Virus record (IMG/VR): IMGVR_UViG_3300020048_000049
Direction: 5' to 3' (one strand)
Source of the DNA: an uncultured virus (IMG/VR IMGVR_UViG_3300020048_000049)
Taxonomy: Duplodnaviria; Heunggongvirae; Uroviricota; Caudoviricetes
Length of the DNA: 64,000 nucleotides
Position numbers and translations under genes: made by a program. Shown piece by piece: positions 20,878-53,670 of the stretch. How positions within the stretch are numbered: position 1 is the stretch's first letter; each line of letters opens with the position of its first letter. A model generated the notes under the pieces. That model was not told the DNA's origin. It saw only the letters and a list, made by a program, of their open reading frames with translations, and did no database searches.

Positions 20878-20878
20878 G

Positions 20879-28665: not shown

Positions 28666-29631
28666 ATGGCACGTAAATCGAATAGTTTTATTAAATTTAA
28701 AGATATCCTAAAAGAAGATATTGAGTCTTCAACCATTTCTGTAGATGAAAACCATGTTTATTTATTAAATTTAGCTATCGGAATTTCTGTTGATAGTAGT
28801 AGGCTTCTTGACAACATCTCTTCTAAGAAAGATTTCATTAGGTCTAAATCTCTTGCTATTCAATTACAAAAAAGTTTAGAATTACTTTTGGAAAAAATAG
28901 AACATTCTCCAGTTAAAGGTGATTTTAATCAGAAAGATTTAGATAACTTTAAAACACTAAAACATTCTGAGTACCCATCATATGTAAAAAAAGTTATTGA
29001 GATTAAAAAAATGTCTCAAAAAGAATATGACGAACATTTAAGTAAATCTCCATCACCATCAGGCTATTCAAATGCTATTGGCCAACAACCAAACGGAAGA
29101 GCTCTCCATAATGGCGGAATGGCGCCACCTAAAGAATGGAAAAGTATAACTGAATTAAATCTTAAGTCTTCTGAAAAAGATAGACTAATTGAAGAAATGA
29201 GAAAGTTAAATGAGCAAGGTAAAACAGTAACAAAAACCAATATTAGTCTACCTATTAATGTAAACGAATTTACTGAGCCTTTTAAATATCTTGAAAATAT
29301 ACACGACTATAATGGCTCATTTCTTATAACTCTTTTAAAAAGTTTAGAAGACATAAAAAGAGAAGAAGCTTCTAACAAAGTTGATTTAAATAAAGAAATT
29401 AAAAAAATCCTAAACGGTGAAGTTATAATATTATCTGTTTATGATATAAAGGGACTTATATCTGAAGGGGAAGAAAAGAAATTTTTAATTGTTTTAACTT
29501 TTGATAAATTAAATGGAGTTTTAAAAAGTGAAAATATACAAACAATATTCCCAAACGGAAAAGCGCACCAGTTATCTAAAAAACAACTAACTGAATTAAA
29601 TAAATTTTTCATATCTAAAAAAATAAACTAA
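28666..29631 (+). CDS. Hypothetical protein
   Basis: ORF track. Confidence 0.65.
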   Translation: MARKSNSFIKFKDILKEDIESSTISVDENHVYLLNLAIGISVDSSRLLDNISSKKDFIRSKSLAIQLQKSLELLLEKIEHSPVKGDFNQKDLDNFKTLKHSEYPSYVKKVIEIKKMSQKEYDEHLSKSPSPSGYSNAIGQQPNGRALHNGGMAPPKEWKSITELNLKSSEKDRLIEEMRKLNEQGKTVTKTNISLPINVNEFTEPFKYLENIHDYNGSFLITLLKSLEDIKREEASNKVDLNKEIKKILNGEVIILSVYDIKGLISEGEEKKFLIVLTFDKLNGVLKSENIQTIFPNGKAHQLSKKQLTELNKFFISKKIN

Positions 29632-29637
29632 TACATT

Positions 29638-30537
29638 ATGATAAAAGCAGAAATCATCGCAGATTCAATTAACAGTAAAGGGAAAAGAATTACTTCTTTT
29701 GTAGTAACAATGCCAAGAATCGTTTTGGCCGAATTAAATACCCACAGAACGCTTTCTAGAAACTCTGCTAGTAGTAGAGCTATTCCGTTTGCAAAGATGG
29801 TAGAAATGGTAAAGAAAACACCTTTTATGCCTATCCAGTTAATGAAAGACCATTCAGGTATGCAAGGAAATGAGTTTTTTACAGAAGAATCTGAAATAGA
29901 AGCTGTGAAGGCTGCATGGCTTGAAGGAAGAGACAATGCTGTTGCAAGTGCTGAAAAACTTAGCGCATTAGGTTTATCAAAACAATTTGTAAATAGAGGA
30001 TTAGAGGCCTATATGTGGCACACTGTAATTATAACGGCAACTGAATTTGAAAATTTTTTAGCTCTTAGAGCTCACGAGGCAGCAGAAATCCATATTCAAA
30101 AACTAGCGTTCTTGATGCTTGAAGAAATGAATAATTCAACACCTAAATTATTACAAGTTGGTGAGTGGCACATTCCATTTGGAGATAATATGGATATTGA
30201 AAAAATTAATAACTTAATTGAATTAGAATCTGGCGAAAATCCAAATAATTTATTTAATTTTAATAAATTTCAAAATGAATATAAAATTAAAATAGCAACT
30301 GCTCGTTGCGCACGTGTTTCTTATACTGTAGTTGGTGAAGAGGGTAAGGTTGATAATTACGCAAATGATGTTAAACTTCATGACCGACTATTAAATATGG
30401 GACATCTTAGCCCTTTTGAACATTGTGCTCAAGCAACTGATAACGAAGGATGGTCTGGAAATTTCTTAGGGTGGACACAATACCGCAAGATGCTTCCAAA
30501 TGAAAATAGAAATGACGATAGATTGTTAACTAAATAA
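29638..30537 (+). CDS. thyX: FAD-dependent thymidylate synthase (phage-type)
   Basis: AELNTHRTLSRNSASSR, FLALR, ARCARVSY, HLSPFEH. Confidence 0.88.
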   Translation: MIKAEIIADSINSKGKRITSFVVTMPRIVLAELNTHRTLSRNSASSRAIPFAKMVEMVKKTPFMPIQLMKDHSGMQGNEFFTEESEIEAVKAAWLEGRDNAVASAEKLSALGLSKQFVNRGLEAYMWHTVIITATEFENFLALRAHEAAEIHIQKLAFLMLEEMNNSTPKLLQVGEWHIPFGDNMDIEKINNLIELESGENPNNLFNFNKFQNEYKIKIATARCARVSYTVVGEEGKVDNYANDVKLHDRLLNMGHLSPFEHCAQATDNEGWSGNFLGWTQYRKMLPNENRNDDRLLTK

Positions 30538-30614
30538 TTGTTGGGTTATTAGGTTATTTTAAATATGGGCTTGTAACTTTTAAATATTTTTATATATTTA
30601 TTATAAAAATAAAC

Positions 30615-31421
30615 ATGAAAGTAACACACATTTATACTTTAACAGACCCAGAAACATTTCAAATAAGATATGTTGGTAAGGCTAATAATATATCTCAAAG
30701 ATATAAAGCTCATTTAAACCGAGCAAGAAAACATCAAATTCATAAAAAAAATTGGATAAATTATTTACGAACAAAAAAATTAAAACCTATAATTGATATT
30801 ATAGATATAGTACCAATAGAAGAATGGGTTTTTTGGGAAACATATTGGATTTCTCAATTCAAAGCTTGGGGATTTAATTTAATAAACTATACTACTGGAG
30901 GTGAAGGTTGTACTTTTGGTAATCAAACATCTTTTAAAAAAGGGCAAGGAGCCACTCCAATTTTACAACTTGATAAACAAGGTAATATAATTAATGAATT
31001 TGAATCTTATTCAAAGGCTAAAAATATATTTGGAAAAAATATTTTTAGCGCAATAGATAAAGAAAGGGCTTCTGTAGGCGGATTTTTATGGTTAAGAAAA
31101 AAAACATATGAATTATTTTCAAAAGAAGAATTTGAAAATTTTATAAACGCATTTAATAATAGAAAAAGAAACCCTAATTCGGGAAATTTTAAAAAAGGAA
31201 TTATTCCTTGGTGTAAAAATAATTCTGGATATAAATTAACTGGACAAAAAAAAGCGGTTTCTGTTATGCAGTTTGATTTGACTAATAATTTTATAAAAAA
31301 ACATTATTCTTGTAAAGAAGCAGCCAAAGAAATGAATTGCATAGAAGAGAATATCAGGGCGGCTTGTGTCGGAAAAAATAAAACTGCTAAAAATTTTATA
31401 TGGAAATATGAAAATAATTAA
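30615..31421 (+). mobile_element. Free-standing GIY-YIG homing endonuclease with NUMOD1-like repeats
   Basis: HIYTLTDP..IRYVGK..R..H..E..WI..N; two QxD..G.II..F/Y.S..EA units ending in F.W. Confidence 0.85.
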
Positions 31422-31444: not shown

Positions 31445-32296
31445 ATGCAAAATTTTAATATTGAATTACCTAAAGAAGTTCTTGCCCCAGGAAAACATAA
31501 TGAAATAAATTTTAATTTATTAGAAGGAAAGATAATTTTAGCTTTAATGGGGTATTCTAAATCTGGGAAAGATACAATTGCTAAAATATTCGTTGATGAC
31601 TATGGCTATCAAAGAGTTGCATTTGCTGATAATATTAAGAAAGAGATGAATTTATATCTTAAGGAACTTGTTTGTGAAGATATTAATGCTCGTCTTTTAG
31701 AAGAAGCAAATAAACTCTCTGTTCAAGGATATATTACATATTGGGAGCCATGGGCACTAGATAAAATAGATTTTTTTACTGAAAACGTAGAGCTTAAAAA
31801 AGTTCTTCGTCCATACATCATTTGGTATGGAGAAAAATTAAGAACTATAAACGGAAAGTTTTGTTGGATTAATAGAGCGTTTTCTGAAGATGCAAAAGAC
31901 ATGGATAAAATAGTTTTATCTGATGTAAGAAGGCTTGCCGAACTTGATGTGTTTAAAGATTCTAATGAGTTTAAAAAGCGTACACGAAAATCATCAATAG
32001 AGTCTGGCATATTAAAGCTAGATGGTGAAACTATTGAGACAAATAATTATGGCACTTTATTATTTGAAGTAAATCAATTTGGCCTAACTGATTCTGATAA
32101 TTTAACTCTTGAAACAATTAGATATGCCAATGAAAATTGGATGGTTGATGATGTGTTTTATGTAGACTCAAGACTTCCGTCAACTTCTAGCCACAGAGAA
32201 AGTGCTATTAAAATTCAAATCAATAAAACTGTAAAAAAGTTTGGTATTGAAAAACCAGATAAAGCTAAAGGTATACAAACAAATATATTTCAATAA
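31445..32296 (+). CDS. Deoxynucleoside monophosphate kinase (T4 gp1-like)
   Basis: GYSKSGKDT, AFADNIK, LSDVR. Confidence 0.8.
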   Translation: MQNFNIELPKEVLAPGKHNEINFNLLEGKIILALMGYSKSGKDTIAKIFVDDYGYQRVAFADNIKKEMNLYLKELVCEDINARLLEEANKLSVQGYITYWEPWALDKIDFFTENVELKKVLRPYIIWYGEKLRTINGKFCWINRAFSEDAKDMDKIVLSDVRRLAELDVFKDSNEFKKRTRKSSIESGILKLDGETIETNNYGTLLFEVNQFGLTDSDNLTLETIRYANENWMVDDVFYVDSRLPSTSSHRESAIKIQINKTVKKFGIEKPDKAKGIQTNIFQ

Positions 32297-34869: not shown

Positions 34870-34897
34870 GAAACTTTTATTTACTTTTATCGTATAA
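34870..34897 (+). promoter_or_regulatory. ECF-sigma-like promoter
   Basis: GAAACTTTTATTTACTTTTATCGTATAA. Confidence 0.65.
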
Positions 34898-35902: not shown

Positions 35903-37105
35903 TTAATTGCGATATAAGAGTTTTTCAAAATTAGCAGTCTCTAATCTGTCTTTTTCTTCTCCAAGTTCTTTTCCGCTAAATCCTTGACTCATCAAATCTT
36001 GAGCATTAACTGTGAACTTAAATTCTTCAAAAGCATCTAATAGTTGAGACACAATACCTTCGTTGGCACCAAAATTTCTAATTTGGTCATCACTAACTCC
36101 AGAAGTTTTTTGAGCCTTTTTAAAAGCAACAGCCGTGTTAATGTCAAGTTTCAATAAAGAAATTAAAAAAGAAATAGATTTGATTTCATCTGCAGAATAT
36201 TTTAAGCCATTAAGAATTGCTCTTAAAGAATCAATTTTATTTCCCTTTAGTAAATGAGATAACAATACGATATAATCATTATAATTATAATCACCCTGCA
36301 TTCTATAGATGTAAGATTCATCAACTTTTAGTCCTGGAAAAATCCAATCAAATAAATTGTATTTTTCAAGCATTTGTAAAAAATGCTTAACAGATTTAGC
36401 AGATTTTATTCCTTTTAAAAATTCATCTCTAATTCTTTCTCCTGAAACTCCTTCAAGACTTGAATCTTTCTGTAAGGCAGCATCGACTGCTGGGTCAAGG
36501 TTAGACCCAAATCTACCAGCAAATCTAATCGCTCTTAAGATTCTCAATCTATCTTCTCCGAATCTTTCTTCAGCACTTCCAACTGTTCTGACAATCCCTT
36601 TATTTAAATCTTCAATACCGCCCACAAGGTCAACAACCTCGCCAGTATCAATATCATAAAATAAAGCATTGATTGTTAAATCACGTCTTTTAACATCACC
36701 AGCAATATCAGTAAATTCAACAGCGTCAGGTCTACGGCCACCAGACAAATCTCGTCTAAAAGTTGCAATTTCGTATTCGCCCTCACTTGTAAATACATTT
36801 ATAACCCCAAATGCTTTTCCAGTCGGTAGCGTGCGTAGACCAGAGGCCTTCATCATTTCTTCAACTTTATCTGGAACAGCATCAGTTGCCAAATCATAAT
36901 CTTTAGGCGTTTTTCCTAATAGAGCATCACGCACAGCACCTCCAACTACATATAATTTAAAACCATTTTTTTTAAAAATATCTTTAATTTGTAATATGTC
37001 TGATGGTACTGGGATAGTTTTTTTTAATCTAATTTCATTAGATTCTTTCATTTCGCTTTCCATTAAAATCTTCCTCACTTCTAATCTTATTTTTTTATTT
37101 TCCAT
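35903..37105 (-). CDS. cca: CCA-adding enzyme / class II tRNA nucleotidyltransferase
   Basis: VGGAVRD..KDYDLAT, EIATFR, RRDLTINA, EDRLRILRAIRF, SGERIRDE. Confidence 0.9.
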   Translation of the reverse strand: MENKKIRLEVRKILMESEMKESNEIRLKKTIPVPSDILQIKDIFKKNGFKLYVVGGAVRDALLGKTPKDYDLATDAVPDKVEEMMKASGLRTLPTGKAFGVINVFTSEGEYEIATFRRDLSGGRRPDAVEFTDIAGDVKRRDLTINALFYDIDTGEVVDLVGGIEDLNKGIVRTVGSAEERFGEDRLRILRAIRFAGRFGSNLDPAVDAALQKDSSLEGVSGERIRDEFLKGIKSAKSVKHFLQMLEKYNLFDWIFPGLKVDESYIYRMQGDYNYNDYIVLLSHLLKGNKIDSLRAILNGLKYSADEIKSISFLISLLKLDINTAVAFKKAQKTSGVSDDQIRNFGANEGIVSQLLDAFEEFKFTVNAQDLMSQGFSGKELGEEKDRLETANFEKLLYRN

Positions 37106-37106
37106 A

Positions 37107-37616
37107 TTATTCTATTGAGTCAAAAGGGTTATCTATTAAATTTATTTTAATAAAATTTTTACTTAAATCATGCGGCACTTCTTGGCCTGACTCTATGTAT
37201 TTATTTATTTCAGCAAATTTTCTACCAACTCCTTCTATTCCTTTTAAAAATTTTCTTTTATTTAATTCTTTCTTCCAATTGTTTAATAAACTCTCAATAT
37301 ACTCACGCACACCGCTTGNNNNNNNNNNGCTTGAATTTGCAGAGTGTACCATGAAATCTAAATTACGTATAGGTAATTCTTTTTCAAAAACCATCCACTT
37401 AGCCGCATCCTTACCCTCTTCCATACTATCGCCCAAATCGTTATCAAATGAAATATAGTCTGGAACACCTTTCAATTCTATAGTTTTTTTAAAATCGGTT
37501 AAATTCCTGACAATCAACCATTCTTCGTTTTTTGTAGAAGGGTATATGTCTGTAGGCATTCTTATGTCATCTAAGAAAACTTTATAAAAATCTATTAGTA
37601 CATCTTTGCGTTTCAT
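37107..37616 (-). CDS. Cyclic-phosphate-processing receiver-domain (cREC-like) protein
   Basis: FLDDIRMP, IVRN, ISFDNDLG, GKDAAKW, VHSAN. Confidence 0.8.
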   Translation of the reverse strand: MKRKDVLIDFYKVFLDDIRMPTDIYPSTKNEEWLIVRNLTDFKKTIELKGVPDYISFDNDLGDSMEEGKDAAKWMVFEKELPIRNLDFMVHSANSSXXXXSGVREYIESLLNNWKKELNKRKFLKGIEGVGRKFAEINKYIESGQEVPHDLSKNFIKINLIDNPFDSIE

Positions 37617-37645: not shown

Positions 37646-37673
37646 TTATACGTTTTATTTTATATAAAGTTTC
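37646..37673 (-). promoter_or_regulatory. ECF-sigma-like promoter for cREC-cca
   Basis: Minus strand GAAACTTTATATAAAATAAAACGTATAA. Confidence 0.65.
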
Positions 37674-37759
37674 TATTTTTTTTATATATTTTGATAATTA
37701 CTTTTATAAATTAAGATAATGACTTTTATAAGTTTATTCATAAGAAAAAATAAATATTT

Positions 37760-37787
37760 GAAACTTTATTGCTATATTTGCGTATAA
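37760..37787 (+). promoter_or_regulatory. Composite promoter of the NAD operon (ECF-like with nested TATATTTG)
   Basis: GAAACTTTATTGCTATATTTGCGTATAA. Confidence 0.7.
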
Positions 37788-37806: not shown

Positions 37807-39051
37807 ATGGGTATTATTAAAAGTATATTGGATACGGATTTATATAAGCTGACTATGCAGAATGCTGTTTGTAAACTTTTTCCAAGAGCAAATGTAAGAT
37901 ATGAATTTATTAATCGTGGCAAAACAATTTTTCCTAGCGGTTTTGATAAAAAACTTAGGAAAGAAATTGAGTCAATGTCAAGCTTATTTTTGACAAAAGA
38001 ACAAAAAACTTTTTTTCGTTTAAAATGCGGTAGATTCATGGATGATGTATATTTCGACTTCCTTGAATCTTATAGATTTGACCCATCAGAAGTGGGTGTT
38101 ATCATGGAAAAAAATGGTGACTTAAAAATAGTTATTGAAGGCCCTTGGTATCGAACAATTTTATGGGAAGTTCCTTTGATGGCTTTAATATCAGAACTTT
38201 ATTTTATTGAGACAAGGCCAGCAATTAAAGATAGAAATGAGCGTTTAAAAAACAACAACAGTAAAGCTATGTTATTTCATCAGCATAGTATGAAAGTAAC
38301 TGACTTCGGAACTCGTAGACGTTTTTCTTTTGACAATCAATTAGAGGTTTGTAAAGACATGAAAAACATGTTCGGAAGTGAAAAATTCTTTGTCGGAACT
38401 TCGAATGTTCAAATTGCAATGGACCTTGGACTTACACCAATTGGAACACATGCTCATGAATGGTTTATGTTCATGGCTGCTCGCTATGGCTACAAAATGG
38501 CAAATCATATGGCATTAGAACATTGGTCTGATGTTTATCAAGGAGACCTTGGAACAGCTTTAACTGATACTTATACAACAGATGCTTTCTTAAAATCTTT
38601 CAATAAAAAGTTTTCAAAACTTTACGATGGTCCTAGACACGATTCTAATAGTCCTTATACTTGGACAGATAAGTTTGTAAATCATTACAAAGGTATGAAT
38701 ATACCACCATCTACAAAAAACCTAGTTTTTTCTAACAACCTAAAAGCAATCTCTGATAACAAAGATGAGTCCGCTGTTGATATACATGAATATTGTATTA
38801 AACAAGGAGAAGGTATTGGCCATTCTTTTGGAATAGGAACGCATTTTTCAAATGACATCATGCTTGACGCAAGACCTTTGAATATGGTAATTAAAATAGT
38901 TTCGGCACAAGCAATTCCAGGAAGCGATGAATGGATTGACACTGTTAAACTAAGCGATGATTTAGGTAAAAACACTGGTAACAATAAAGCTATTCAATTA
39001 TGCAAAGACACATTGAATATTCCAGAAATTAAAGAATTAGAAAAAGTTTAA
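37807..39051 (+). CDS. pncB: Nicotinate phosphoribosyltransferase
   Basis: LDTDLYKLTM, DFGTRRRFS, GTSNV, GTHAHEW, FGIGT, KLSDD.GK.TG. Confidence 0.92.
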   Translation: MGIIKSILDTDLYKLTMQNAVCKLFPRANVRYEFINRGKTIFPSGFDKKLRKEIESMSSLFLTKEQKTFFRLKCGRFMDDVYFDFLESYRFDPSEVGVIMEKNGDLKIVIEGPWYRTILWEVPLMALISELYFIETRPAIKDRNERLKNNNSKAMLFHQHSMKVTDFGTRRRFSFDNQLEVCKDMKNMFGSEKFFVGTSNVQIAMDLGLTPIGTHAHEWFMFMAARYGYKMANHMALEHWSDVYQGDLGTALTDTYTTDAFLKSFNKKFSKLYDGPRHDSNSPYTWTDKFVNHYKGMNIPPSTKNLVFSNNLKAISDNKDESAVDIHEYCIKQGEGIGHSFGIGTHFSNDIMLDARPLNMVIKIVSAQAIPGSDEWIDTVKLSDDLGKNTGNNKAIQLCKDTLNIPEIKELEKV

Positions 39052-39053
39052 AT

Positions 39054-39623
39054 ATGAAAAAAGTAATTAGATTACAAAAAGAAATTCGTGATTACGATAA
39101 GTATTTTAAAATTGATTCAGTTGTTATTGACGAATTGGAGGATGGTATTTTTAAAGATTCTTATACTAGATATAAGTTAACTAGACCTGATGCTGTTGCG
39201 ATACTTGTGTTCAATGAAGACACAAAACAAATTACATTAGTTAAACAATTTAGATATCCAATCTCGCATAGAGAATCTGAAAACATCCTTGAGGTTGTAG
39301 CTGGTAAAATTGATGGCGATGAGTCTCCAAAAAAAGCTGCAATAAGAGAGCTTGAGGAAGAAATAGGTTACAGAATATCGGAAGAAATACTTAGCAATCC
39401 AATTGAAATGTATGCATCTGCAGGCTATTCAACAGAAAAGATTTACATCTTTTTAGCAGTTGTAAAAAATTCAGATAAAGTTTCTGATGGAGGCGGAGTT
39501 GCTGGAGAACATGAAAATATTGAAATTGTAAATATGGACTTAAACGATTTTATGTCAAAAATTCGCTCAAATGAAATAAAAGATTCTAAAACTTTATTAG
39601 CATCTACTCTTATTAAATTATGA
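39054..39623 (+). CDS. Nudix hydrolase, ADP-ribose pyrophosphatase (NudF/NudK-like)
   Basis: Nudix box GKIDGDESPKKAAIRELEEEIG; DAVAIL, KQFRYP, E.E.I, D.KT. Confidence 0.85.
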   Translation: MKKVIRLQKEIRDYDKYFKIDSVVIDELEDGIFKDSYTRYKLTRPDAVAILVFNEDTKQITLVKQFRYPISHRESENILEVVAGKIDGDESPKKAAIRELEEEIGYRISEEILSNPIEMYASAGYSTEKIYIFLAVVKNSDKVSDGGGVAGEHENIEIVNMDLNDFMSKIRSNEIKDSKTLLASTLIKL

Positions 39624-39910
39624 ATTTATCATTTGAAATAATTGAGAGCTTTGGTTTGAAAAAAAAATTTATAACTCCTGATTGGGATGATGCTGGATAT
39701 GAATTTACATTACCATCTGGTATAGTTTTAACTGGATTTCATATGCTAAACACTTCTCCATATCCAATGGATACATTAGAAGGATTATCTGGATTCATTT
39801 ATATAAAAACTAAAGAAGAACTAGAAAAATTAATTTCATTAACGTATGAGCAAACCCTGCAATATGTAAAAGAAAAAAACCCAGAATTTAATATTGAAGA
39901 ATGGATATGA
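39620..39910 (+). CDS. Hypothetical protein inside the NAD operon
   Basis: Overlaps both neighbours. Confidence 0.65.
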   Translation: MNLSFEIIESFGLKKKFITPDWDDAGYEFTLPSGIVLTGFHMLNTSPYPMDTLEGLSGFIYIKTKEELEKLISLTYEQTLQYVKEKNPEFNIEEWI

Positions 39911-40533
39911 AAAAAACACGTATAGGCTTATTGTTTGGCTCGTTTAACCCAATTCACATTGGGCACTTAGTAATGGCTGAAATGGCTATAGAATCTGGCC
40001 ATGTTGACTTTGTATGGTTTGTAGTATCTCCTAATAGTCCATACAAAATGGACAAAGGCATATTGGCGCCACCAGATGATAGATATGCTATGGTAATGAA
40101 AGCTGTTGCATATAATAATAAATTTGGAGTAGACACCACTGAGTTCTATTTAGAAGGGCCTTCATATACTTATATTACTCTTGGAAAATTAAAAGAAAAA
40201 CATCCAGAACATGAATTTCATTTGATTTGCGGAACTGATGTATACGTTGATATTCCTAACTGGCATGGCGGAAAAGAAGTTATTGAGGCAGTTAACTTTC
40301 TTGTATATCCAAGAAATACGTCAACAAATTATTCTCCAGAAGAAATGGCAANNNNNNNNNNNNNNNNNNNNNNNNNNNNNNNNNNNNNNNNNNCAAATTT
40401 CTTGAACGGAGTCCCTACTCTTGAAATATCATCAACTTTTTTGCGAGAACAAATAAAAAAAGATAAATCAACGAAACATTTATTGCCAGAATCCGTACAA
40501 ACATATATTAAAGAATATAATTTATATAAATAA
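39907..40533 (+). CDS. nadD: Nicotinate mononucleotide adenylyltransferase
   Basis: [20 protein letters not shown]...W, EISST..R; N gap inside. Confidence 0.92.
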
Positions 40534-40534
40534 A

Positions 40535-41404
40535 ATGGAAACAACAACTCAAAAAAAATCATTAAATTATTCCGAAGTAAATTATCAAATTTCAAAATGG
40601 TTACAAAACTACGCTATTGATTCAAAAATGAATGGATATGTTATAGGAGTATCTGGGGGAATTGACTCGGCTGTATGTTCAACATTATGTGCCGCAACTG
40701 GCCTACCTCTTACTGTTATTAGAATGTCAATTCATCAGGCTCCTGACCAAGCTGACCGTGGCGCTAAGCATATCGAATGGCTTAAATCAAAATACCCAAA
40801 TGTATCTTCTTTAGATATTGACCTTACACAATCTTACGATAATCAAATTGATGCCCTAAAAAACTCTGGCGGATTTGATAATGTATCAGAAGAACAAATA
40901 TTCTTAACATCTGCTAATACACGCTCAAGACTTCGTATGATTACTTTATACGGTATTGGTGGCGCTCATAAATTATTGGTATGTGGCACTGGAAACAAAG
41001 TAGAAGATTATGGAATTGGATTCTTTACGAAGTTTGGTGATGGGGGAGTTGACCTTTCTCCGATTGGAGAATTAATGAAGTCTGAAGTTTATGCTCTTGC
41101 CGCAGAGATGGACATCATTAAAGAGATATTAGACGCAAGACCTACTGATGGATTATGGGCAGATGGCCGTACTGATGAAGACCAAATTGGGGCTACATAT
41201 GATGAGCTTGAATGGGCTATGGAATTTTGTGATACAGCTCCAGCAATAGTAGAGGGGTTTGTTTATGGGCATGAATCCGCTTTTTTTGCACCACTTTCAG
41301 ACAGACAAAAAGAAGTAGTTAGAATCTACTGGAAGCGCCATAAAGCAAATGCGCATAAAATGATAATGCCTCCAATTTGTAACATATCTAATTTAAGAAA
41401 CTAA
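40535..41404 (+). CDS. nadE: NH3-dependent NAD+ synthetase
   Basis: GVSGGIDS, NTRSRLRM, GTGNKVE, FFTKFGDGG, PTDGLW...TDEDQIG; no glutaminase domain. Confidence 0.93.
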   Translation: METTTQKKSLNYSEVNYQISKWLQNYAIDSKMNGYVIGVSGGIDSAVCSTLCAATGLPLTVIRMSIHQAPDQADRGAKHIEWLKSKYPNVSSLDIDLTQSYDNQIDALKNSGGFDNVSEEQIFLTSANTRSRLRMITLYGIGGAHKLLVCGTGNKVEDYGIGFFTKFGDGGVDLSPIGELMKSEVYALAAEMDIIKEILDARPTDGLWADGRTDEDQIGATYDELEWAMEFCDTAPAIVEGFVYGHESAFFAPLSDRQKEVVRIYWKRHKANAHKMIMPPICNISNLRN

Positions 41405-41405: not shown

Positions 41406-41618
41406 ATGGAAAAATTAATTATATTTCTAAAAATTATAGCTTGGGCAATTGCTATTATATCTACTATATTTACCTTTTTGACAATATGGGGAACATTAAC
41501 ATATCCAGGAAGTGCTGATGAATGGAATGATAAACTTCGTGGAATTAGAAGAGAATATCCTGTAGTCAGATGGTTAATAGCTGCAATTATATCTTGGGCA
41601 TTTATAATTGCATTTTAA
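41406..41618 (+). CDS. Small membrane protein
   Basis: Two hydrophobic segments. Confidence 0.6.
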   Translation: MEKLIIFLKIIAWAIAIISTIFTFLTIWGTLTYPGSADEWNDKLRGIRREYPVVRWLIAAIISWAFIIAF

Positions 41619-41642
41619 TTGGTCACAACAAAAATAAAAAAT

Positions 41643-41966
41643 ATGAAAGACGAAAATAAATTATGGGATGAATACAATGATATGACTAATGAAATCATTG
41701 AAGAGCATGGTATACTATCTCCACAAGATAAGATTAATTGCTACGTTTGTAAATGTGGGTGTGCCACAAAAACAATTGAGGTTGACCATGGCACAACCCC
41801 TTCTGCTATTAAATGTGAGTTGTGTGGGTCTATGGCATATGATGATGTAGCTCCAACACATGAGTGGTATCGTCCATCTTTTGAAGAACTTTTAACCATG
41901 CTTAATGACGAAGAAATGGTTAAGCATGTCTTACAAGGTGGTTTATGTATTAGAAAAATAAATTAA
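41643..41966 (+). CDS. Zinc-ribbon hypothetical protein
   Basis: CKCG...CELC. Confidence 0.6.
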   Translation: MKDENKLWDEYNDMTNEIIEEHGILSPQDKINCYVCKCGCATKTIEVDHGTTPSAIKCELCGSMAYDDVAPTHEWYRPSFEELLTMLNDEEMVKHVLQGGLCIRKIN

Positions 41967-41973: not shown

Positions 41974-43515
41974 CTAGAACTTATGTTCTGAAATAACCTT
42001 TCTAACTATTTTTCTGATATAATTTTCAGAGATATTATCTGAACCATTCTTACTGCTATCTATTAATTTTATAAATTCATTTGAGAAATTTAAAAGAGTT
42101 TTACTATAGCTTCCTATTTTTTCTTTATCAATTCCTAAACTAGCAACATTGTATTTGCTAGATTCTGACGGTAACCCATAATGTCTTTTAACTATGTTAC
42201 TTATAACCTCTGCAAACCCCTTGACAGAATCTTCTCTTTCTCTTGCGTTTTTAATATCCTTAAATATGTAATCATACTTATTTCCAAAAGTTTTTGATAT
42301 AACTTTATTTAGTAATACATTTAAATTATTTATATCTCCTCTTTCTTCTCCAATTCCAAGAGTGTTAACTTTTTCTTTTTCAGCTATTTTAGAAACAACG
42401 TCAAAAACATTACTAATCTTATTTATAACTTCATCAGATTGAATCGCATCATCTTTTGCGCTAAATTCTTTTGTTTCTAAAGGCACCTGTTCTACTCCAG
42501 GTATTGGTTCTATCATTTTATCTGTAAAAGTAGGAAAACGGTTTTGTGCTCCAGAAGTTGTTCCGAAAAAATTATTCTTAAGACCAAAAGTAGCCAATCC
42601 ATAGTGATTTTTTGTATCTGACAAATATTGGTCTATAGATAAATCTCTATTAAGATTTTTTTCACTTTTATATTGATTCCAAGCATTAGGGTTGTTTTTG
42701 TACCAATAAGCATTATCTTTTGTCGTATTTTTTTTGTTTCCAGGTTTTAAAATTAAAATACCTTTTGAAAATTCTGGTTTTATACTATAGCCTTTATCAG
42801 CCCATACGAATTTTGGAGCCGCAAATGTTGCGTTAGGGTCCGAAAATCTTATAATCAAAGAGTTTAAGAAAGAATAACTATGAAAATTATCGTTTTGTGA
42901 CTGGAATTGCTTAACCTTTTCAAAAGTATCAATTAAAAACTCAAAAACATCATCATTTTCTACTGCGTTCATTAAGTCATCTAAATATCTATCTAAATTC
43001 TGAGCAACTTGAACATTACCAGTACTTTCGGCAGCTTCTTTAGTCCCTTCAACAGCATCTACAATAGCATTTATTTGTGTAATCTGCTCTGGTGTTAAAT
43101 TATGAGTGCTTAAATCGTAATCTTGTTTTTCTACAGTGTTATAATGGTGTACTAATTCTTTTAGCTGACCAACCAGTGTATTAACTTTATCAGGAGAATC
43201 TAAATTCGTAATTTCATATCCCCATCCAAAAGCGCCATTTGAAGTTAAGTTTTTTAAATATGATGGTGGCTGAAAAGAAAATGTATTTTTAAAATTACCT
43301 AAATTTTTAGCAGAAACATTTAATTTAAAACCCATTTTTGCAGTTTCTTTATCTCTGGCGGTTTGGTCTTTTAAATCGGATGTTATAAAAATTTTATATT
43401 TACCATCTTTCTCAGATGTTTTAAAAATTTTTACAGATTCGCTTATCTTTTGCTTACCGCTAGAAGCTTCATAGCGTTCAGATAGCAAATTCTTTATCTT
43501 AACTGATTTTTTCAT
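41974..43515 (-). CDS. ArdC-N-like ssDNA-binding domain protein with C-terminal tag
   Basis: FHSYSFLNSLII...PNATF.A...W...G..I....KGI.IL.P; C-terminal ISENYIRKIVRKVISE. Confidence 0.65.
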   Translation of the reverse strand: MKKSVKIKNLLSERYEASSGKQKISESVKIFKTSEKDGKYKIFITSDLKDQTARDKETAKMGFKLNVSAKNLGNFKNTFSFQPPSYLKNLTSNGAFGWGYEITNLDSPDKVNTLVGQLKELVHHYNTVEKQDYDLSTHNLTPEQITQINAIVDAVEGTKEAAESTGNVQVAQNLDRYLDDLMNAVENDDVFEFLIDTFEKVKQFQSQNDNFHSYSFLNSLIIRFSDPNATFAAPKFVWADKGYSIKPEFSKGILILKPGNKKNTTKDNAYWYKNNPNAWNQYKSEKNLNRDLSIDQYLSDTKNHYGLATFGLKNNFFGTTSGAQNRFPTFTDKMIEPIPGVEQVPLETKEFSAKDDAIQSDEVINKISNVFDVVSKIAEKEKVNTLGIGEERGDINNLNVLLNKVISKTFGNKYDYIFKDIKNAREREDSVKGFAEVISNIVKRHYGLPSESSKYNVASLGIDKEKIGSYSKTLLNFSNEFIKLIDSSKNGSDNISENYIRKIVRKVISEHKF

Positions 43516-45258: not shown

Positions 45259-45420
45259 TTTATCCTTTTAATATAATTAGTTTTATATTTTTTTAAAATG
45301 ACTTTTATCACTCCATTCAAACGCTATACTGGCCCATTTAATATAAGTGGACGCTTTATGCCTATAAGTGGTTTACTTTTTTTAATAAACTATCTATATT
45401 TAAAGATAAAAAATAATATT

Positions 45421-46641: not shown

Positions 46642-47141
46642 ATGAAATTACCAATTTATATTTATAATNNNNNNNNNNNNNNNNNNNNNNNNNNNNNNNN
46701 NNNNNNNNNNNNNNNNNNNNNNNNNNNNNNNNNNNNNNNNNNNNNNNNNNNNNNNNNNNNNNNNNNNNNNNNNNNNNNNNNNNNNNNNNNNNNNNNNNNG
46801 ATAAATTAAAAGATTTTAAAAAAGTATTTATTAATTCTGAAGTCATAGAAGAAGAAGGAGAAGAAGTTTCAGCACATGAGGGTTGTTTAAGTATACCAGG
46901 AATAAACATAGAAATCAAAAGAAAGCCAAAAATAAAATTAAAGTACTTCGATGAAAATTTTATTGAACACGAAGAATGGTTTGATGGACTTGCTGCTAGA
47001 TGTATACTACATGAGCATGACCACACAAATGGAATTTTGTTTTTAAAAAGAATTTCTTCATTTAATTATAAGTTATTAGAGAGCAATCTTAAACAAATTA
47101 TAAAAAGAAATTTTTCAACTAGTTATATATACAAAAAATAA
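46642..47141 (+). CDS. def: Peptide deformylase (absent from ORF track because of N gap)
   Basis: MKLPIYIY start; EGCLSIPG and ARCILHEHDH.NGIL motifs after the gap. Confidence 0.88.
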
Positions 47142-47308: not shown

Positions 47309-47887
47309 ATGAAAAACATAGTTCTAATAGGACCTCCAGGAGCAGGTAAAGGCACTCAAGCAAAATTAATTTCTAATAAATTAGATTTAATACATATATC
47401 TACAGGAGATTTAATTAGAGAAGAACAAGCTAACGATACAAAAATCGGTAAGCTTGCAAATCAGTTAATTGATAAAGGGCAATTCTTACCAGATAACATT
47501 GTTATTACAATGGTAAAGCAAAAAGTAATAGATAATCCTAACGCTAACGGATTTATATTTGATGGTTTTCCAAGAACTGTTGACCAAGCAAAATCATTGG
47601 ATGAGTTTTTAAATGCAAGAAAAACTCCAATCAATAAAGTTATTTTATTAGAAATCAATGACGAAATTATAAAGAAAAGAATTTCTGAAAGAGCCTTATT
47701 AGAAAATAGAGTTGATGATAATTCAGAAGTATTACAAACTAGAATAAATGTTTATAAAAAACAAACTATTCCAGTTATTAATTATTATAAAAATAGTTAT
47801 TTGTTTGCTGCCAATAGAGGAATTGTAAACATTGAAGCGGCTAAGTCAAAAGAAGATGTGATGGCTGAATTAGAAGCGTCTATCTAA
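47309..47887 (+). CDS. adk: Adenylate kinase (short, LID-less)
   Basis: GPPGAGKGTQ, STGDLIR, FDGFPRT, RVDD. Confidence 0.93.
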   Translation: MKNIVLIGPPGAGKGTQAKLISNKLDLIHISTGDLIREEQANDTKIGKLANQLIDKGQFLPDNIVITMVKQKVIDNPNANGFIFDGFPRTVDQAKSLDEFLNARKTPINKVILLEINDEIIKKRISERALLENRVDDNSEVLQTRINVYKKQTIPVINYYKNSYLFAANRGIVNIEAAKSKEDVMAELEASI

Positions 47888-50811: not shown

Positions 50812-51023
50812 AAAGACCACTAAAAATACTACTGATTTTTTTTATAATAATCGCCTTCAGTTCATCAATTGTTAATTTTATTGCTATGTTTTATTCAAAA
50901 CATCCAATTTATAATTTGACCGCAGCATTATTTGGGCTAGCTATTTCCCATATTATAAGTCAAGATATTACAAATAAAGAACCAGAAACTTCAGAAGAAG
51001 ATGAAACTTTTATTGAAAACTAA
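50808..51023 (+). CDS. Small membrane protein
   Basis: Two TM segments. Confidence 0.6.
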   Translation: MKRPLKILLIFFIIIAFSSSIVNFIAMFYSKHPIYNLTAALFGLAISHIISQDITNKEPETSEEDETFIEN

Positions 51024-51030
51024 CGTATAA
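51003..51030 (+). promoter_or_regulatory. ECF-sigma-like promoter
   Basis: GAAACTTTTATTGAAAACTAACGTATAA. Confidence 0.65.
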
Positions 51031-53400: not shown

Positions 53401-53670
53401 ATGGAAAAAATTCTCTTCGACACACCAATGTCATACCCAAACAAAAAAGGTAAGTGGTCACACCTTGTAGCCAGTGATTTAAAAACCCTGCATGCATTCG
53501 CAGGAAAACTTGGACTCCCAAGATATAAGTTTCAAAACAAAAAAAAGAATAACAAAAAACAACCACACTACGATATACAAGAACATCTTGTAGAAAAAGC
53601 GATTCAACTAGGAGCCATACAGGTTCAAAGAAAAGAGTTGCTTTTGTTTATAAAATCTATATATTATTGA
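53401..53670 (+). CDS. DUF4031-like protein
   Basis: WSHLVAS...LHAFA..LGL....FQ...PHYDI. Confidence 0.75.
   Translation: MEKILFDTPMSYPNKKGKWSHLVASDLKTLHAFAGKLGLPRYKFQNKKKNNKKQPHYDIQEHLVEKAIQLGAIQVQRKELLLFIKSIYY

What the first reader, a model, noticed from the sequence alone, without database searches (positions are those of the whole stretch)
37807..41404. Phage-encoded deamidated (Preiss-Handler) NAD+ rebuilding operon: pncB-ADPRase-orf-nadD-nadE
Seen: four tightly coupled genes with intact catalytic motifs for PncB, a Nudix ADP-ribose pyrophosphatase, NadD and NH3-dependent NadE, in a phage context. Established: SIR2/TIR-type defences (Thoeris, DSR, some CBASS/pAgo) cleave NAD+ to ADP-ribose and nicotinamide. 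The described phage counter-pathways NARP1 (Adps+Namat) and NARP2 (Nampt+Nmnat) use amidated routes. Inference: this is a different route, nicotinate to NaMN to NaAD to NAD+, with Nudix releasing ribose-5-P (PRPP precursor) and AMP (recyclable by the adk at 47309). It is a candidate third NAD-reconstitution anti-defence system. No PncA or Prs is visible in the window, so these would come from the host or elsewhere in the genome.
Basis: partly seen in the sequence, partly recalled or inferred. Interest (0 to 1): 0.9.

Follow-up and report, generated by a model that had tools for sequence, protein, structure and literature searches.

The report
Phage nicotinate-to-NAD operon with Nudix
A large uncultured freshwater phage carries a compact operon that should make the cofactor NAD+ from nicotinic acid, a kind of phage gene cluster already described, here with a conserved extra hydrolase, and its proposed role against NAD-destroying bacterial defences is still untested.

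Summary
Confirmed. Window 37807-41404 encodes PncB, a Nudix hydrolase, a 96-aa ORFan, NadD and a single-domain NadE. They are tightly coupled on the + strand, and two more coupled small ORFs follow. All four enzymes pass curated NCBIfam cut-offs. The context is a large, AT-rich, uncultured freshwater phage.

The module is conserved. Of 41 metagenome loci encoding this Nudix, 15 carry PncB-Nudix-NadD-NadE in this order and 15 more carry part of it. None of 19 plainly bacterial loci does. A promoter-like motif, GAAAC-N16-CGTATAA, has 5 exact copies in the window against 0.00 expected. It precedes pncB here and in 12 related loci. A divergent copy faces a cREC/CCA-adding-enzyme pair.

The idea is not new. 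Li et al. 2024 described pncB-nadD-nadE(-pncA) clusters in jumbo phages and suggested counter-defence. The name "NARP3" is already taken by PnuC+NadR.

The Nudix is YffH/NudK-class, and ADP-ribose specificity is unproven. NadE is closest to the Francisella NMN synthetase, so the reaction order is open. No PncA or Prs was found in the window or in five related partial genomes. An anti-NADase function is plausible but untested.

Verdict: new variant of a known kind, moderate interest.

The parts
37760..37787 (+). Promoter-like motif GAAAC-N16-CGTATAA, 19 nt upstream of the pncB ATG
   Evidence: There are 5 exact copies in the window against 0.00 expected in 100 shuffles. An exact copy sits 15-25 nt upstream of pncB in 12 related loci. 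Function as a promoter is inferred.
37807..39051 (+). PncB, nicotinate phosphoribosyltransferase (414 aa)
   Evidence: TIGR01514 scores 390.2 bits (cut-off 269.55) and NF003704 417.2 bits (cut-off 379). Pfam finds NAPRTase_N plus NAPRTase. The best solved relative is 2im5 at 317.5 bits. The match to the phage Nampt family phrog_448 is only 35.7 bits.
39054..39623 (+). Two-domain Nudix hydrolase of the YffH/AdpP (NDP-sugar / ADP-ribose) class (189 aa)
   Evidence: TIGR00052 scores 83.3 bits (cut-off 79.55). The AF2 model has pLDDT 82.7. The top Foldseek hits are NudK 3o6z/3o61, followed by the K. pneumoniae ADPRase 9b20. The gene sits between pncB and nadD in 15 of 41 metagenome loci.
39620..39910 (+). 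orf96, an ORFan inserted between the Nudix and NadD
   Evidence: No Pfam, NCBIfam or PHROG family matches. tblastn at E<=1e-5 finds no homologue in any locus mapped. In relatives the Nudix and NadD are 6-214 nt apart. The best Atlas score is 0.85, below the informative range. A contig of another run spans it unchanged.
39901..40533 (+). NadD, nicotinate(nicotinamide)-mononucleotide adenylyltransferase (210 aa; 14 residues hidden by an N-run)
   Evidence: TIGR00482 scores 160.1 bits (cut-off 112.45) and NF000840 151.2 bits (cut-off 150). The best solved relatives are bacterial NadD structures 3hfj and 1kam at about 98 bits.
40473..40500 (+). One-mismatch copy of the promoter-like motif, 35 nt upstream of the nadE start
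   Evidence: In L126 an exact copy (7144-7171) lies just upstream of NadE, whose match begins at 7178. This may be an internal promoter, which is inference.
40535..41404 (+). NadE, single-domain (NH3-type) NAD synthetase family (289 aa)
   Evidence: TIGR00552 scores 160 bits (cut-off 63.65). Pfam finds NAD_synthase only, with no glutaminase domain. phrog_11189 scores 249.6 bits. The best solved match is 3fiu at 130.7 bits, with the next at 83.3.
41406..41618 (+). orf70, a small hydrophobic protein (two predicted membrane spans, judged by eye) coupled to nadE
   Evidence: A homologue (40-51% identity) directly follows NadE in L001/L012, L084, L086, L087, L092, L101, L103, L104 and L106. No family matches. 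The best Atlas score is 0.83, which is uninformative.
41619..41966 (+). orf115, a Cys-rich small protein and the last coupled ORF
   Evidence: It starts at the base after the orf70 stop. No family matches. No homologue was found in any related locus.
37646..37673 (-). Second copy of the promoter-like motif, 29 nt upstream of the divergent cREC gene
   Evidence: Divergent minus-strand copies also occur in L092, L103 and L104.
37107..37616 (-). cREC-domain protein (169 aa), divergent neighbour
   Evidence: PF20274 cREC_REC scores 66.7 bits (cut-off 27). The gene is conserved next to pncB in L001, L002, L092, L094 and L126. cREC is predicted, not shown, to process cyclic-phosphate RNA ends and ADPr derivatives (PMC9503650, passages).
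35903..37105 (-). CCA-adding enzyme / poly(A) polymerase family nucleotidyltransferase (400 aa)
   Evidence: Pfam finds PolyA_pol plus PolyA_pol_RNAbd. phrog_2244 tRNA nucleotidyltransferase scores 189.6 bits. All NCBIfam equivalogs score below their cut-offs.
47309..47887 (+). Adenylate kinase, about 6 kb downstream
   Evidence: NF001381 scores 204.3 bits (cut-off 187). A copy lies 2-4 kb downstream of NadE in L001, L011, L084, L086, L092, L095, L096, L100 and L126. This may be plain synteny among relatives.

Best explanation
This is an NAD+ synthesis operon of a large uncultured freshwater phage. It is read from a lineage-conserved promoter-like element.

Proposed chemistry:
- PncB condenses nicotinate with PRPP to give NaMN.
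- NadD and NadE then convert NaMN to NAD+ by adenylylation and ATP/NH3-dependent amidation.
- The usual order is NaMN to NaAD to NAD+. The Francisella-type order, NaMN to NMN to NAD+, is not excluded.
- The Nudix between pncB and nadD is a fixed accessory of the module. It most likely hydrolyses ADP-ribose, or another NAD-derived dinucleotide, to AMP plus a sugar phosphate.

The net effect is to keep the infected cell's NAD+ pool up from the pyridine base, independently of host regulation.

Shown here: the enzyme families, the operon structure, conservation of the gene order across a phage lineage, its absence from the bacterial loci examined, and the shared upstream motif.

Inferred: the activities, the substrates, the timing, and what selects for the module. 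That could be general supply for replication or escape from NAD+-depleting defence.
For: 1. All four enzymes pass curated cut-offs, and the coupling is tight.
2. The gene order is conserved down to 42% Nudix identity. Of 41 metagenome loci, 15 have all four genes on one strand in the same order. Another 15 have a subset, many of them cut by contig ends. The same order is seen in IMG/VR contigs L001/L012, and partly in L010 and L011.
3. The arrangement is phage-specific. Of 20 GTDB genome loci with a relative of the Nudix, only L126 has it. L126 is a 54-kb, 31% GC contig with the phage-type synteny. The MAG that holds it also carries a second, different NAPRTase-family match and a longer NadE on other contigs. 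The other 19 loci have no NAD gene within 6 kb.
4. The GAAAC-N16-CGTATAA motif has 5 exact copies in the window against 0.00 expected, and one precedes pncB in 12 related loci.
5. Non-orthologous Nudix genes sit in or near PncB clusters of unrelated phages:
   - L007, a gut phage: PncA-like, PncB, NadE, NadD-like, Nudix.
   - Sinorhizobium phage Phosso: nadE, pncB, a MutT-like Nudix and an NMNAT.
   - Agrobacterium phage Atu_ph07: an annotated ADPRase 3 kb upstream of pncB.
6. One more distant relative (the record of L003) has an NAD-dependent DNA ligase next to its NadD.
7. Published precedent: Li et al. 2024 report pncB-nadD-nadE clusters in jumbo phages (PMC11662467, section 17).
Against: - No activity was measured, and the substrates of the Nudix, NadD and NadE are not determined by sequence.
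- The nearest solved relative of the Nudix is a GDP-mannose hydrolase. The residue that aligns with the Pro of NudK's SPGG is Ala in the window copy. It is Pro in 12 of the 14 aligned family members.
- Some relatives lack NadD in the locus (L010, L108-L110, L112, L124). The four-gene set is therefore not obligatory.
- Of 71 viral loci with a NadE relative, 69 show no PncB, NadD or Nudix within 6 kb by tblastn. NadE alone evidently has value to phages.
- Transcription is not shown. The one contig from an RNA library covers 248 nt and could derive from DNA.
- Fourteen residues of NadD are hidden by an N-run.
Confidence: 0.72

Rival explanations
1. The operon is a dedicated counter-defence, a further NAD+ reconstitution pathway. 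After a SIR2/TIR/SEFIR-type NADase splits NAD+, host PncA turns nicotinamide into nicotinate and the phage enzymes rebuild NAD+. The Nudix converts the ADP-ribose debris into AMP and ribose-5-phosphate, which host Prs turns into PRPP.
For: - Three other NAD+ rebuilding routes are proven anti-defence systems: NARP1 and NARP2 (abstract of 10.1101/2024.02.11.579819) and NARP3 (abstract of PMC13464706).
- ADPr-processing genes recur beside phage pncB. These are the Nudix here and in L007 and Phosso, an ADP-ribosylglycohydrolase beside pncB in the 462-kb phage LR756500, and cREC here.
- The divergent cREC/CCA pair shares the same promoter-like motif.
- A route that needs only the pyridine base and PRPP would not be blocked when the ADP-ribose moiety is made unusable, as in aRES (abstract of 10.64898/2026.01.28.702374). 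That point is inference.
- Li et al. 2024 also raise counter-defence (PMC11662467, section 20).
Against: - No PncA and no Prs were found in the window or in 5 related viral records. Those records are only 25-74% complete. The loop therefore needs two host enzymes.
- The route costs more ATP and has more steps than NARP1 to NARP3. That point is inference.
- ADP-ribose specificity of the Nudix is unproven.
- No NADase defence is known for the unidentified host.
- I found no experimental test in print.
Confidence: 0.28
2. The genes are the same but the chemistry runs in the Francisella order. NadE acts as an NMN synthetase (NaMN to NMN), and the adenylyltransferase then makes NAD+ from NMN. The route is then only half 'deamidated'.
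For: - The best solved match of NadE is 3fiu at 130.7 bits, with the next at 83.3.
- 3fiu is F. tularensis NadE, described as specific for NaMN (PMC12143786, section 19 and the Fig. 5 legend).
- Tyr149 of 3fiu, a residue named in that Fig. 5 legend, aligns with a Tyr in the window protein.
- Several relatives keep PncB-Nudix-NadE without NadD.
Against: - The adenylyltransferase is NadD-type (TIGR00482 and NF000840 above their cut-offs), not NadM-type. Bacterial NadD enzymes generally prefer NaMN, which is recalled knowledge.
- Similarity to 3fiu may only reflect a shared short NadE architecture.
- No residue that decides specificity could be tested here.
Confidence: 0.2
3. The Nudix does not serve NAD+ synthesis. 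It belongs with the neighbouring cREC protein and CCA-adding enzyme in an RNA-repair or ADPr-derivative clean-up system, and the NAD genes merely sit beside it or feed it NAD+.
For: - Nudix-cREC neighbourhoods, and even fusions, are described in jumbo-phage RNA-repair contexts (PMC9503650, section 29 passage).
- cREC and the CCA-adding enzyme are conserved next to pncB in several relatives.
- Both units carry the same upstream motif.
Against: - The Nudix lies inside the pncB-nadD-nadE unit, on the other strand from cREC and the CCA-adding enzyme. It keeps that position in 15 of 41 loci.
- cREC was detected in only 5 of the loci that hold pncB.
- No KptA (PF01885) was found in 5 related records.
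- No RNA ligase, 2H or sirtuin domain was found in the window scans.
Confidence: 0.12
4. The stretch is bacterial or a chimeric assembly, and the cluster is an ordinary cellular salvage operon.
For: One syntenic contig is filed in a bacterial MAG (L126). One relative is labelled Nanoarchaeota by its depositor.
Against: - The window holds an endolysin, a phage metallopeptidase, tail-like proteins, homing endonucleases and mostly ORFans.
- Four IMG/VR viral contigs share the synteny.
- 0 of 19 other genome loci show the cluster.
- The MAG holding L126 has its own, different NAPRTase-family and NadE matches on other contigs.
- Contigs from other runs cover the stretch with almost no differences.
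Confidence: 0.03

Closest known systems
Preiss-Handler 'biosynthetic gene clusters' of NAD-jumbo phages (Li et al. 2024, Microbiome, PMC11662467; e.g. Kuafu_71)
   Same: pncB, nadD and nadE are clustered on a large phage genome. They are predicted to make NAD+ from nicotinate, and counter-defence is suggested but untested.
   Different: - The published map text reads 'nadD nadE pncB pncA'. Here the order is pncB-Nudix-(orf)-nadD-nadE.
- No pncA was seen in this lineage.
- This lineage adds a conserved YffH-class Nudix, a small membrane ORF and a conserved upstream motif.
- This lineage is found in freshwater and sediment samples, not in animal gut.
- The Nudix is not mentioned in that paper's main text (0 occurrences). 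Its supplementary tables were not available to me.
NARP2 (Nampt + Nmnat) and the KVP40 NadV/NatV salvage pathway
   Same: Both are phage-encoded two-to-three-step routes that rebuild NAD+ from the pyridine base plus PRPP and ATP. KVP40 NatV carries a Nudix module fused to its NMNAT (PMC13464706, section 9 passage; PMC9503650, section 25).
   Different: - Those routes use nicotinamide directly through Nampt. Here the phosphoribosyltransferase is a nicotinate enzyme and an amidation step (NadE) is needed.
- Here the Nudix is a separate gene of another subfamily.
- NARP2 is experimentally proven as an anti-defence system. This operon is not.
NARP1 (Adps + Namat) and its aRES-countering phosphatase extension
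   Same: Both are operons devoted to keeping NAD+ up in the face of NADases. Both include an enzyme that acts on ADP-ribose-type debris.
   Different: NARP1 re-uses ADP-ribose as a building block through ADPR-PP. Here ADP-ribose would at best be broken down to AMP and ribose-5-phosphate. No PRPS-like or Namat gene is present.
NARP3 (PnuC-like transporter + NadR-like enzyme; PMC13464706)
   Same: It is a phage NAD+ restoring system that draws on a vitamin precursor rather than on the cleavage products alone.
   Different: The precursor differs (nicotinamide riboside against nicotinate) and the enzymes are unrelated. No PnuC or NadR is present in the window.
Bacterial Preiss-Handler salvage (pncA-pncB-nadD-nadE) and the Francisella NadE*/NadM route
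   Same: The enzyme families are the same. The host pncA-pncB1-nadE operon is even induced during jumbo phage PA5oct infection (PMC7318152, summary).
   Different: In the bacterial loci examined here, relatives of this Nudix are not linked to NAD genes (0 of 19). The four-gene arrangement therefore looks assembled in phages. NadE resembles the Francisella enzyme but is paired with NadD, not NadM.

Membership tests
Preiss-Handler pathway (PncB + NadD + NadE) | A nicotinate (not nicotinamide) phosphoribosyltransferase | tested here: met
   The TIGR01514 equivalog scores 390.2 bits (cut-off 269.55) and NF003704 417.2 bits (cut-off 379). All 6 solved relatives are NAPRTases. The match to the phage Nampt PHROG is only 35.7 bits.
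Preiss-Handler pathway (PncB + NadD + NadE) | A NadD-family mononucleotide adenylyltransferase | tested here: met
   TIGR00482 scores 160.1 bits (cut-off 112.45). The solved relatives are all NadD. Fourteen residues are unreadable because of an N-run.
Preiss-Handler pathway (PncB + NadD + NadE) | An NAD synthetase that amidates NaAD | tested here: inconclusive
   Family membership is met (TIGR00552 160 bits against cut-off 63.65). The closest solved enzyme, 3fiu, is the NaMN-specific Francisella form (PMC12143786, section 19).
Preiss-Handler pathway (PncB + NadD + NadE) | Measured conversion of nicotinate to NAD+ | not testable with these tools
   This needs enzyme assays or metabolite profiling.
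NAD+ reconstitution anti-defence pathways (NARP class, functional definition) | Restores NAD+ and phage growth in cells carrying an NAD+-depleting defence | not testable with these tools
   No experiment was possible. I found no published test of a phage Preiss-Handler operon.
NAD+ reconstitution anti-defence pathways (NARP class, functional definition) | Can start from the NADase products (nicotinamide, ADP-ribose) with phage genes alone | tested here: not met
   No PncA (PF00857) or Prs (PF13793) was found in the window ORFs or in 5 related viral records of 25-74% completeness. Absence from the full genomes is not proven.
NARP1 / NARP2 / NARP3 (specific systems) | Adps+Namat, or Nampt+Nmnat, or PnuC+NadR genes | tested here: not met
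   None of these families appeared among 87 window ORFs scanned against Pfam, and the phosphoribosyltransferase is PncB.
ADP-ribose pyrophosphatase (NudF/ADPRase) | Nudix box plus the N-terminal beta domain of the NDP-sugar/ADPR hydrolase fold | tested here: met
   The Nudix box is perfect (translation). The AF2 model (pLDDT 82.7) matches NudK, K. pneumoniae ADPRase, NUDT14 and the Bdellovibrio NDP-sugar hydrolase over about 186 columns.
ADP-ribose pyrophosphatase (NudF/ADPRase) | Equivalog-level sequence match or demonstrated ADP-ribose preference | tested here: not met
   The NF008003 ADP-ribose diphosphatase model scores 46.7 bits (cut-off 248) and NudK NF011585 scores 75.1 bits (cut-off 234). 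Only the broad TIGR00052 subfamily passes. Substrate preference cannot be tested here.
NrtR (Nudix-related NAD regulator) | A C-terminal winged-helix DNA-binding domain | tested here: not met
   The protein is 189 aa with a Nudix domain only. The model ends just after the Nudix fold.
NAD-jumbo phage (Li et al. 2024) | A phage genome >200 kb encoding a complete NAD+ pathway | tested here: inconclusive
   The pathway genes are present. Only 64 kb of this genome is visible. Syntenic IMG/VR contigs of 153 and 187 kb are rated 52% and 57% complete by CheckV, which implies about 290-330 kb. That size is inference.

The most novel reading that the evidence does not exclude
PncB-Nudix-NadD-NadE(-small membrane protein) is a fourth, phage-assembled NAD+ reconstitution system. 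The Nudix removes or recycles ADP-ribose-type debris, or signals, made by NADase defences. The other three enzymes rebuild NAD+ from the pyridine base. The module is switched on together with a cREC/CCA-adding RNA-end repair pair through one lineage-specific promoter class, forming a co-regulated counter-defence island. Because it does not need intact ADP-ribose, it would also work against defences such as aRES that spoil the ADP-ribose moiety.
Probability: 0.22. Interest if true: 0.75.

Novelty: new variant of a known kind. Interest (0 to 1): 0.45.

Why it matters
NAD+ depletion is a common end-point of bacterial anti-phage immunity, and three phage rebuilding routes have been proven since 2024. 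A nicotinate-based route has been noticed in metagenomic jumbo phages but never tested.

This lineage offers a compact candidate for that test, conserved in at least 15 contigs. It has a defined accessory Nudix and a defined upstream element. Near-identical copies of the stretch occur in freshwater and sediment metagenomes of 15 studies (one of these may be the source sample).

If it works as a counter-defence, the list of NAD+ reconstitution chemistries would grow to include the deamidated branch. It would also show that ADP-ribose disposal is selected together with NAD+ synthesis. If it does not, it is an ordinary auxiliary metabolic module of a large phage.

Tried and rejected
No whole genome is held for the window, so the rest of the contig could not be searched for pncA or prs.
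- The sigma-70 and terminator scan was uninformative. It found 36 promoter-like sites against 42.6 expected, with no terminator inside the operon.
- The Bacteroidota-type -7 element TAnnTTTG (consensus recalled) is not enriched overall: 113 copies against 111.5 expected. The narrower TATATTTG has 6 of 18 copies 15-27 nt upstream of start codons, against 0.48 expected under a uniform model. That model ignores AT-rich intergenic composition, so I treat this only as a lead. At pncB this word lies inside the spacer of the stronger GAAAC-N16-CGTATAA motif.
- No tRNA genes were found.
- The Atlas look-ups for orf96 and orf70 scored 0.85 and 0.83, below the informative range.
- Hallmark searches in 5 related viral records gave little. 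Terminase_6C had no match. A tail-sheath family gave one sub-threshold match, E 9.6e-8, in a 797-aa frame. KptA had no match. All five records are fragments.
- L097's contig has the same length as Pelagibacter phage HTVC008M. I tested identity and rejected it: only a 90-nt NadE match to cyanophages was found, and PncB tblastn does not hit HTVC008M.
- Four metagenome contigs could not be searched as records because they are not held.
- Read laying:
  - Only assembled contigs were available, so no transcript ends or levels could be read.
  - One 248-nt contig from an RNA library lies inside the Nudix gene, which does not show transcription.
  - One run with a 0.73 word share laid nothing.
- The top 120 PncB homologues and the top 120 Nudix homologues carry almost no organism names, so the host could not be read from them.
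- Host hints are weak. The nearest cellular Nudix relatives are Bacteroidota MAGs at 39-48% identity. The best PncB structure is 2im5, whose source I only recall as a Bacteroidota species.
- Complex prediction and the search of protein representatives were not used. No binding claim is made.

Full report
OBSERVATION

- 37807-39051, 414 aa
- 39054-39623, 189 aa
- 39620-39910, 96 aa
- 39901-40533, 210 aa
- 40535-41404, 289 aa

All are on the + strand. The junctions are a 2-nt gap, a 4-nt overlap, a 10-nt overlap and a 1-nt gap. Two further ORFs continue the coupling: orf70 at 41406-41618 and orf115 at 41619-41966. The unit therefore has seven genes. It ends against a convergent gene (41974-43515, minus strand).

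Curated models confirm the enzymes:

| Gene | Model | Bits | Cut-off |
|---|---|---|---|
| PncB | TIGR01514 | 390.2 | 269.55 |
| PncB | NF003704 | 417.2 | 379 |
| Nudix | TIGR00052 (YffH/AdpP subfamily) | 83.3 | 79.55 |
| NadD | TIGR00482 | 160.1 | 112.45 |
| NadE | TIGR00552 | 160 | 63.65 |

Pfam agrees, and it shows NadE as a single NAD_synthase domain without a glutaminase domain. The expected motifs can be read in the translations: GTHAHEW in PncB, a perfect Nudix box, HIGH and ISST in NadD, and SGGIDS in NadE. That these are the catalytic motifs is recalled knowledge. A 42-nt N-run hides 14 residues of NadD.

CONTEXT

The window is about 30% GC throughout and consists mostly of ORFans. 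The recognisable genes are phage-like:
- an endolysin with a peptidoglycan-binding domain and an amidase_2 domain
- a phage metallopeptidase
- tail-like beta-roll proteins
- an SNF2 helicase
- ThyX
- GIY-YIG and HNH endonucleases
- a dNMP kinase
- PcfJ-like proteins

No whole genome is held for the window. Four IMG/VR viral contigs share the local synteny. CheckV rates them 25-57% complete at 76-187 kb, which points to genomes of roughly 190-340 kb. That size is inference. Near-identical sequence occurs in 19 DNA runs of freshwater, lake, sediment or subsurface metagenomes from 15 studies, one of which may be the source.

A bacterial or chimeric origin is unlikely.

THE MODULE IS CONSERVED AND PHAGE-SPECIFIC

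I aligned the Nudix with 13 homologues (A1) and used the alignment to scan metagenome contigs. The scan returned 41 loci. Mapping the window's proteins onto them by tblastn at E<=1e-5 gave:
- 15 loci with PncB, Nudix, NadD and NadE, all on one strand and in this order.
- 15 loci with the Nudix next to one or two of the three. Many of these are cut by contig ends. Five (L108, L109, L110, L112, L124) have NadE directly after the Nudix with no NadD.
- 11 loci with none. These are mostly short or high-GC contigs.

Nudix identity in the 15 full loci runs from 75% down to 42%.

The same scan of one genome per prokaryotic species returned 20 loci. Only L126 has the cluster. L126 is a 54-kb, 31% GC contig with the phage-type neighbours: CCA-adding enzyme, cREC and Adk. 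The MAG it is filed in carries a second, different NAPRTase-family match and a longer NadE on other contigs. The nearest cellular relatives of the Nudix are in Bacteroidota MAGs (39-48% identity) and have no NAD gene within 6 kb. Across the other 19 loci the count is 0 of 19.

The four-gene arrangement therefore looks assembled in phages rather than captured whole.

orf96 has no homologue in any locus and is an insertion peculiar to this phage. In relatives the Nudix and NadD are 6-214 nt apart. orf70 is conserved directly after NadE in nine loci. orf115 is not conserved.

Phage NadE on its own is common. Of 71 viral loci found with NadE, 69 show no PncB, NadD or Nudix within 6 kb. This test used the window's own proteins, so divergent adenylyltransferases would be missed.

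A CONSERVED UPSTREAM ELEMENT

Comparing the 60 nt upstream of pncB across relatives revealed GAAAC, a 16-nt spacer and CGTATAA. The window holds 5 exact copies against 0.00 expected in 100 shuffles:
- 37760-37787 (+), 19 nt before the pncB ATG
- 37646-37673 (-), 29 nt before the divergent cREC gene
- 2908-2935 (-)
- 34870-34897 (+)
- 51003-51030 (+)

A one-mismatch copy lies 35 nt before nadE. Exact copies precede pncB in 12 related loci: L001, L002, L012, L084, L086, L087, L092, L094, L097, L103, L104 and L106. L001 and L012 are the same contig. L103 and L104 look like duplicates.

I read this as a promoter class of the lineage. It would place the NAD operon and the cREC/CCA-adding pair under common control. 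No transcript data support this yet.

WHAT EACH STEP LIKELY DOES

PncB is a nicotinate enzyme by every test. All six solved relatives are NAPRTases, and the only phage Nampt family it touches scores 35.7 bits.

NadD is NadD-type.

The best solved match of NadE, by a wide margin, is 3fiu (130.7 bits, next best 83.3). A review identifies 3fiu as F. tularensis NadE, specific for NaMN and producing NMN (PMC12143786, section 19 and the Fig. 5 legend). The order of amidation and adenylylation is therefore open. Either order ends in NAD+.

The Nudix has the two-domain fold of NDP-sugar/ADP-ribose hydrolases (model pLDDT 82.7). Its best matches are:
- E. coli NudK, a GDP-mannose hydrolase (E 8e-15)
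- K. pneumoniae ADP-ribose diphosphatase (E 3e-12)
- NUDT14
- the Bdellovibrio NDP-sugar hydrolase
- the B. methanolicus Nudix

These come, and the sequence ranking is the same. The residue aligned with the Pro of NudK's SPGG is Ala in the window copy and Pro in 12 of 14 family members. That this Pro marks ADPRases is recalled knowledge.

ADP-ribose remains the contextually best guess, for two reasons:
1. The gene keeps its place inside the NAD operon.
2. Unrelated phages have recruited other Nudix types next to their NAD genes:
   - The gut phage scaffold MT835470 (L007) has a PncA-like gene, PncB, NadE, a NadD-like gene and a Nudix.
   - Sinorhizobium phage Phosso has nadE, pncB, a MutT-like Nudix and an NMNAT.
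   - Agrobacterium phage Atu_ph07 has an annotated ADPRase 3 kb from pncB.
   - The L007 Nudix shares only the Nudix box with the window's protein.

The huge phage LR756500 has an ADP-ribosylglycohydrolase two genes from its PncB. A fused NMNAT-Nudix is known from KVP40 NatV and bacterial NadM (PMC9503650, section 25; PMC13464706, section 9 passage).

THE ANTI-DEFENCE CLAIM

To rebuild NAD+ from the products of a NADase, this operon needs two more enzymes. A nicotinamidase must make nicotinate, and Prs must turn ribose-5-phosphate into PRPP. Neither is in the 87 window ORFs scanned or in five related viral records. All five records are incomplete. Published gut jumbo phage clusters do include pncA (Fig. 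S7 text), and L007 has a PncA-like gene (68.1 bits to the nicotinamidase model, below its cut-off of 174).

Points in favour of a conflict role:
- ADPr-processing genes recur beside phage pncB.
- The cREC neighbour is predicted, though never shown, to process ADPr derivatives and cyclic-phosphate RNA ends (PMC9503650, passages).
- The upstream motif is shared.
- A base-plus-PRPP route would be indifferent to defences that spoil ADP-ribose, such as aRES (abstract of 10.64898/2026.01.28.702374). This point is inference.

Points in favour of plain supply:
- A more distant relative places an NAD-dependent DNA ligase next to NadD.
- Jumbo phage PA5oct induces the host pncA-pncB1-nadE operon (PMC7318152, summary).
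- Li et al. note that phage and host pathways complement each other.

I put the dedicated counter-defence reading at roughly one in four.

PRIOR KNOWLEDGE

Li et al. 2024 (PMC11662467; I read the abstract, sections 17 and 20, passages, and one supplementary text file) report the following:
- 174 of 668 gut jumbo phages encode a complete salvage or Preiss-Handler pathway.
- They name a pncB-nadD-nadE cluster in Kuafu_71.
- They suggest a survival or counter-defence role.
- They state that experiments are lacking.

The word Nudix does not occur in their main text. I could not see their supplementary tables.

NARP1 and NARP2 are proven systems (10.1101/2024.02.11.579819; I saw the listing abstract and one passage, and the terms pncB, nadD, nadE and Preiss do not occur in it). 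NARP3 is also proven (PMC13464706; abstract and passages), so 'third' is taken. Iyer et al. 2022 list only NadV, NadM and NadR as phage NAD+ synthesis enzymes (PMC9503650, section 25).

Searches for a tested phage Preiss-Handler counter-defence found none.

VERDICT

Its kind is already in print. New here are:
- the fixed YffH-class Nudix inside the operon
- the apparent absence of pncA from this lineage
- the Francisella-like NadE
- the conserved upstream motif shared with a cREC/CCA-adding pair
- the freshwater lineage itself

This is a new variant of a known kind, of moderate interest and easily testable.

Noticed in passing
window 2908-2935(-), 34870-34897(+), 37646-37673(-), 37760-37787(+), 51003-51030(+); one-mismatch copies at 40473-40500(+) and 53669-53696(+): The bipartite motif GAAAC-N16-CGTATAA has 5 exact copies against 0.00 expected. 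Most lie shortly upstream of ORF starts, and the motif is conserved upstream of pncB in 12 related loci. It is probably a promoter class of this phage lineage. Its timing and the polymerase or sigma factor that reads it are unknown.
   Followed up: partly
window 35903-37616 (-): A cREC-domain protein and a CCA-adding/poly(A)-polymerase-family enzyme form a divergent pair next to the NAD operon. The pair is conserved in several relatives. It may be a tRNA 3'-end or cyclic-phosphate repair unit.
   Followed up: partly
window 37694-37740 and 45273-45319: A tandem 22-nt repeat (ATAAT[TG]ACTTTTATAA-like) lies in the pncB/cREC intergenic region. A third copy lies upstream of the ORF at 45298 (family D1). 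It could be an operator.
   Followed up: no
window 28666-31421: The ThyX match covers only profile positions 60-190 of the ORF 29638-30537. A family-less 321-aa ORF precedes it, and a GIY-YIG/NUMOD1 homing endonuclease follows at 30615-31421. This may be a thyX gene split or invaded by a mobile element.
   Followed up: no
window 31445-32296, 47309-47887, 49843-50811: Further nucleotide-metabolism genes are present: a dNMP kinase, an adenylate kinase and a GMP reductase/IMPDH-family protein. The last scores below all equivalog cut-offs.
   Followed up: no
window 8074-10125 and 16263-17027; 17085-22398: Two PcfJ-like proteins are present. There is also a run of large proteins with beta-roll/YadA-head-like repeats and a weak match to a PHROG annotated as a tail protein. 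These are probably fibres.
   Followed up: no
L003 13426-15260 and L146 (same IMG/VR record): A more distant phage has PncB, then a PP2C phosphatase and a kinase-like protein, then NadE and NadD. An NAD-dependent DNA ligase (PF01653, 161.4 bits) lies next to NadD.
   Followed up: partly
L007 (MT835470.1) 6196-12654: An unannotated human-gut phage scaffold carries a metallophosphatase, a PncA-like isochorismatase, PncB, NadE, an AAA protein, a NadD-like protein and a Nudix of the NadM-Nudix/NrtR type. This would be a full nicotinamide-to-NAD+ deamidated set.
   Followed up: partly
L004 (LR756500.1) 7502-10654: In a 462-kb huge phage, PncB is flanked by a nucleoside deoxyribosyltransferase-like gene, ClpP and an ADP-ribosylglycohydrolase.
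   Followed up: no
L010 2501-11787; L001 9228-9653 and 13791-14339: Relatives vary the module. L010 has a CorA Mg2+ channel between the Nudix and NadE and no NadD in 187 kb, together with AdoMet decarboxylase, DUF3326, DHFR and a SLOG/YAcAr protein nearby. L001 has a 4HBT thioesterase between PncB and the Nudix, and a peptide deformylase downstream.
   Followed up: no
L005 (LR756501.1) 10797-12953: A TonB-dependent receptor-like ORF (Plug domain plus beta-barrel) lies just after PncB and NadE in the 735-kb huge phage.
   Followed up: no
window, ten N-runs: The window holds ten runs of N, 10-131 nt long. One lies inside NadD, one inside the cREC gene, and one covers most of the stretch 46669-46799.
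   Followed up: no
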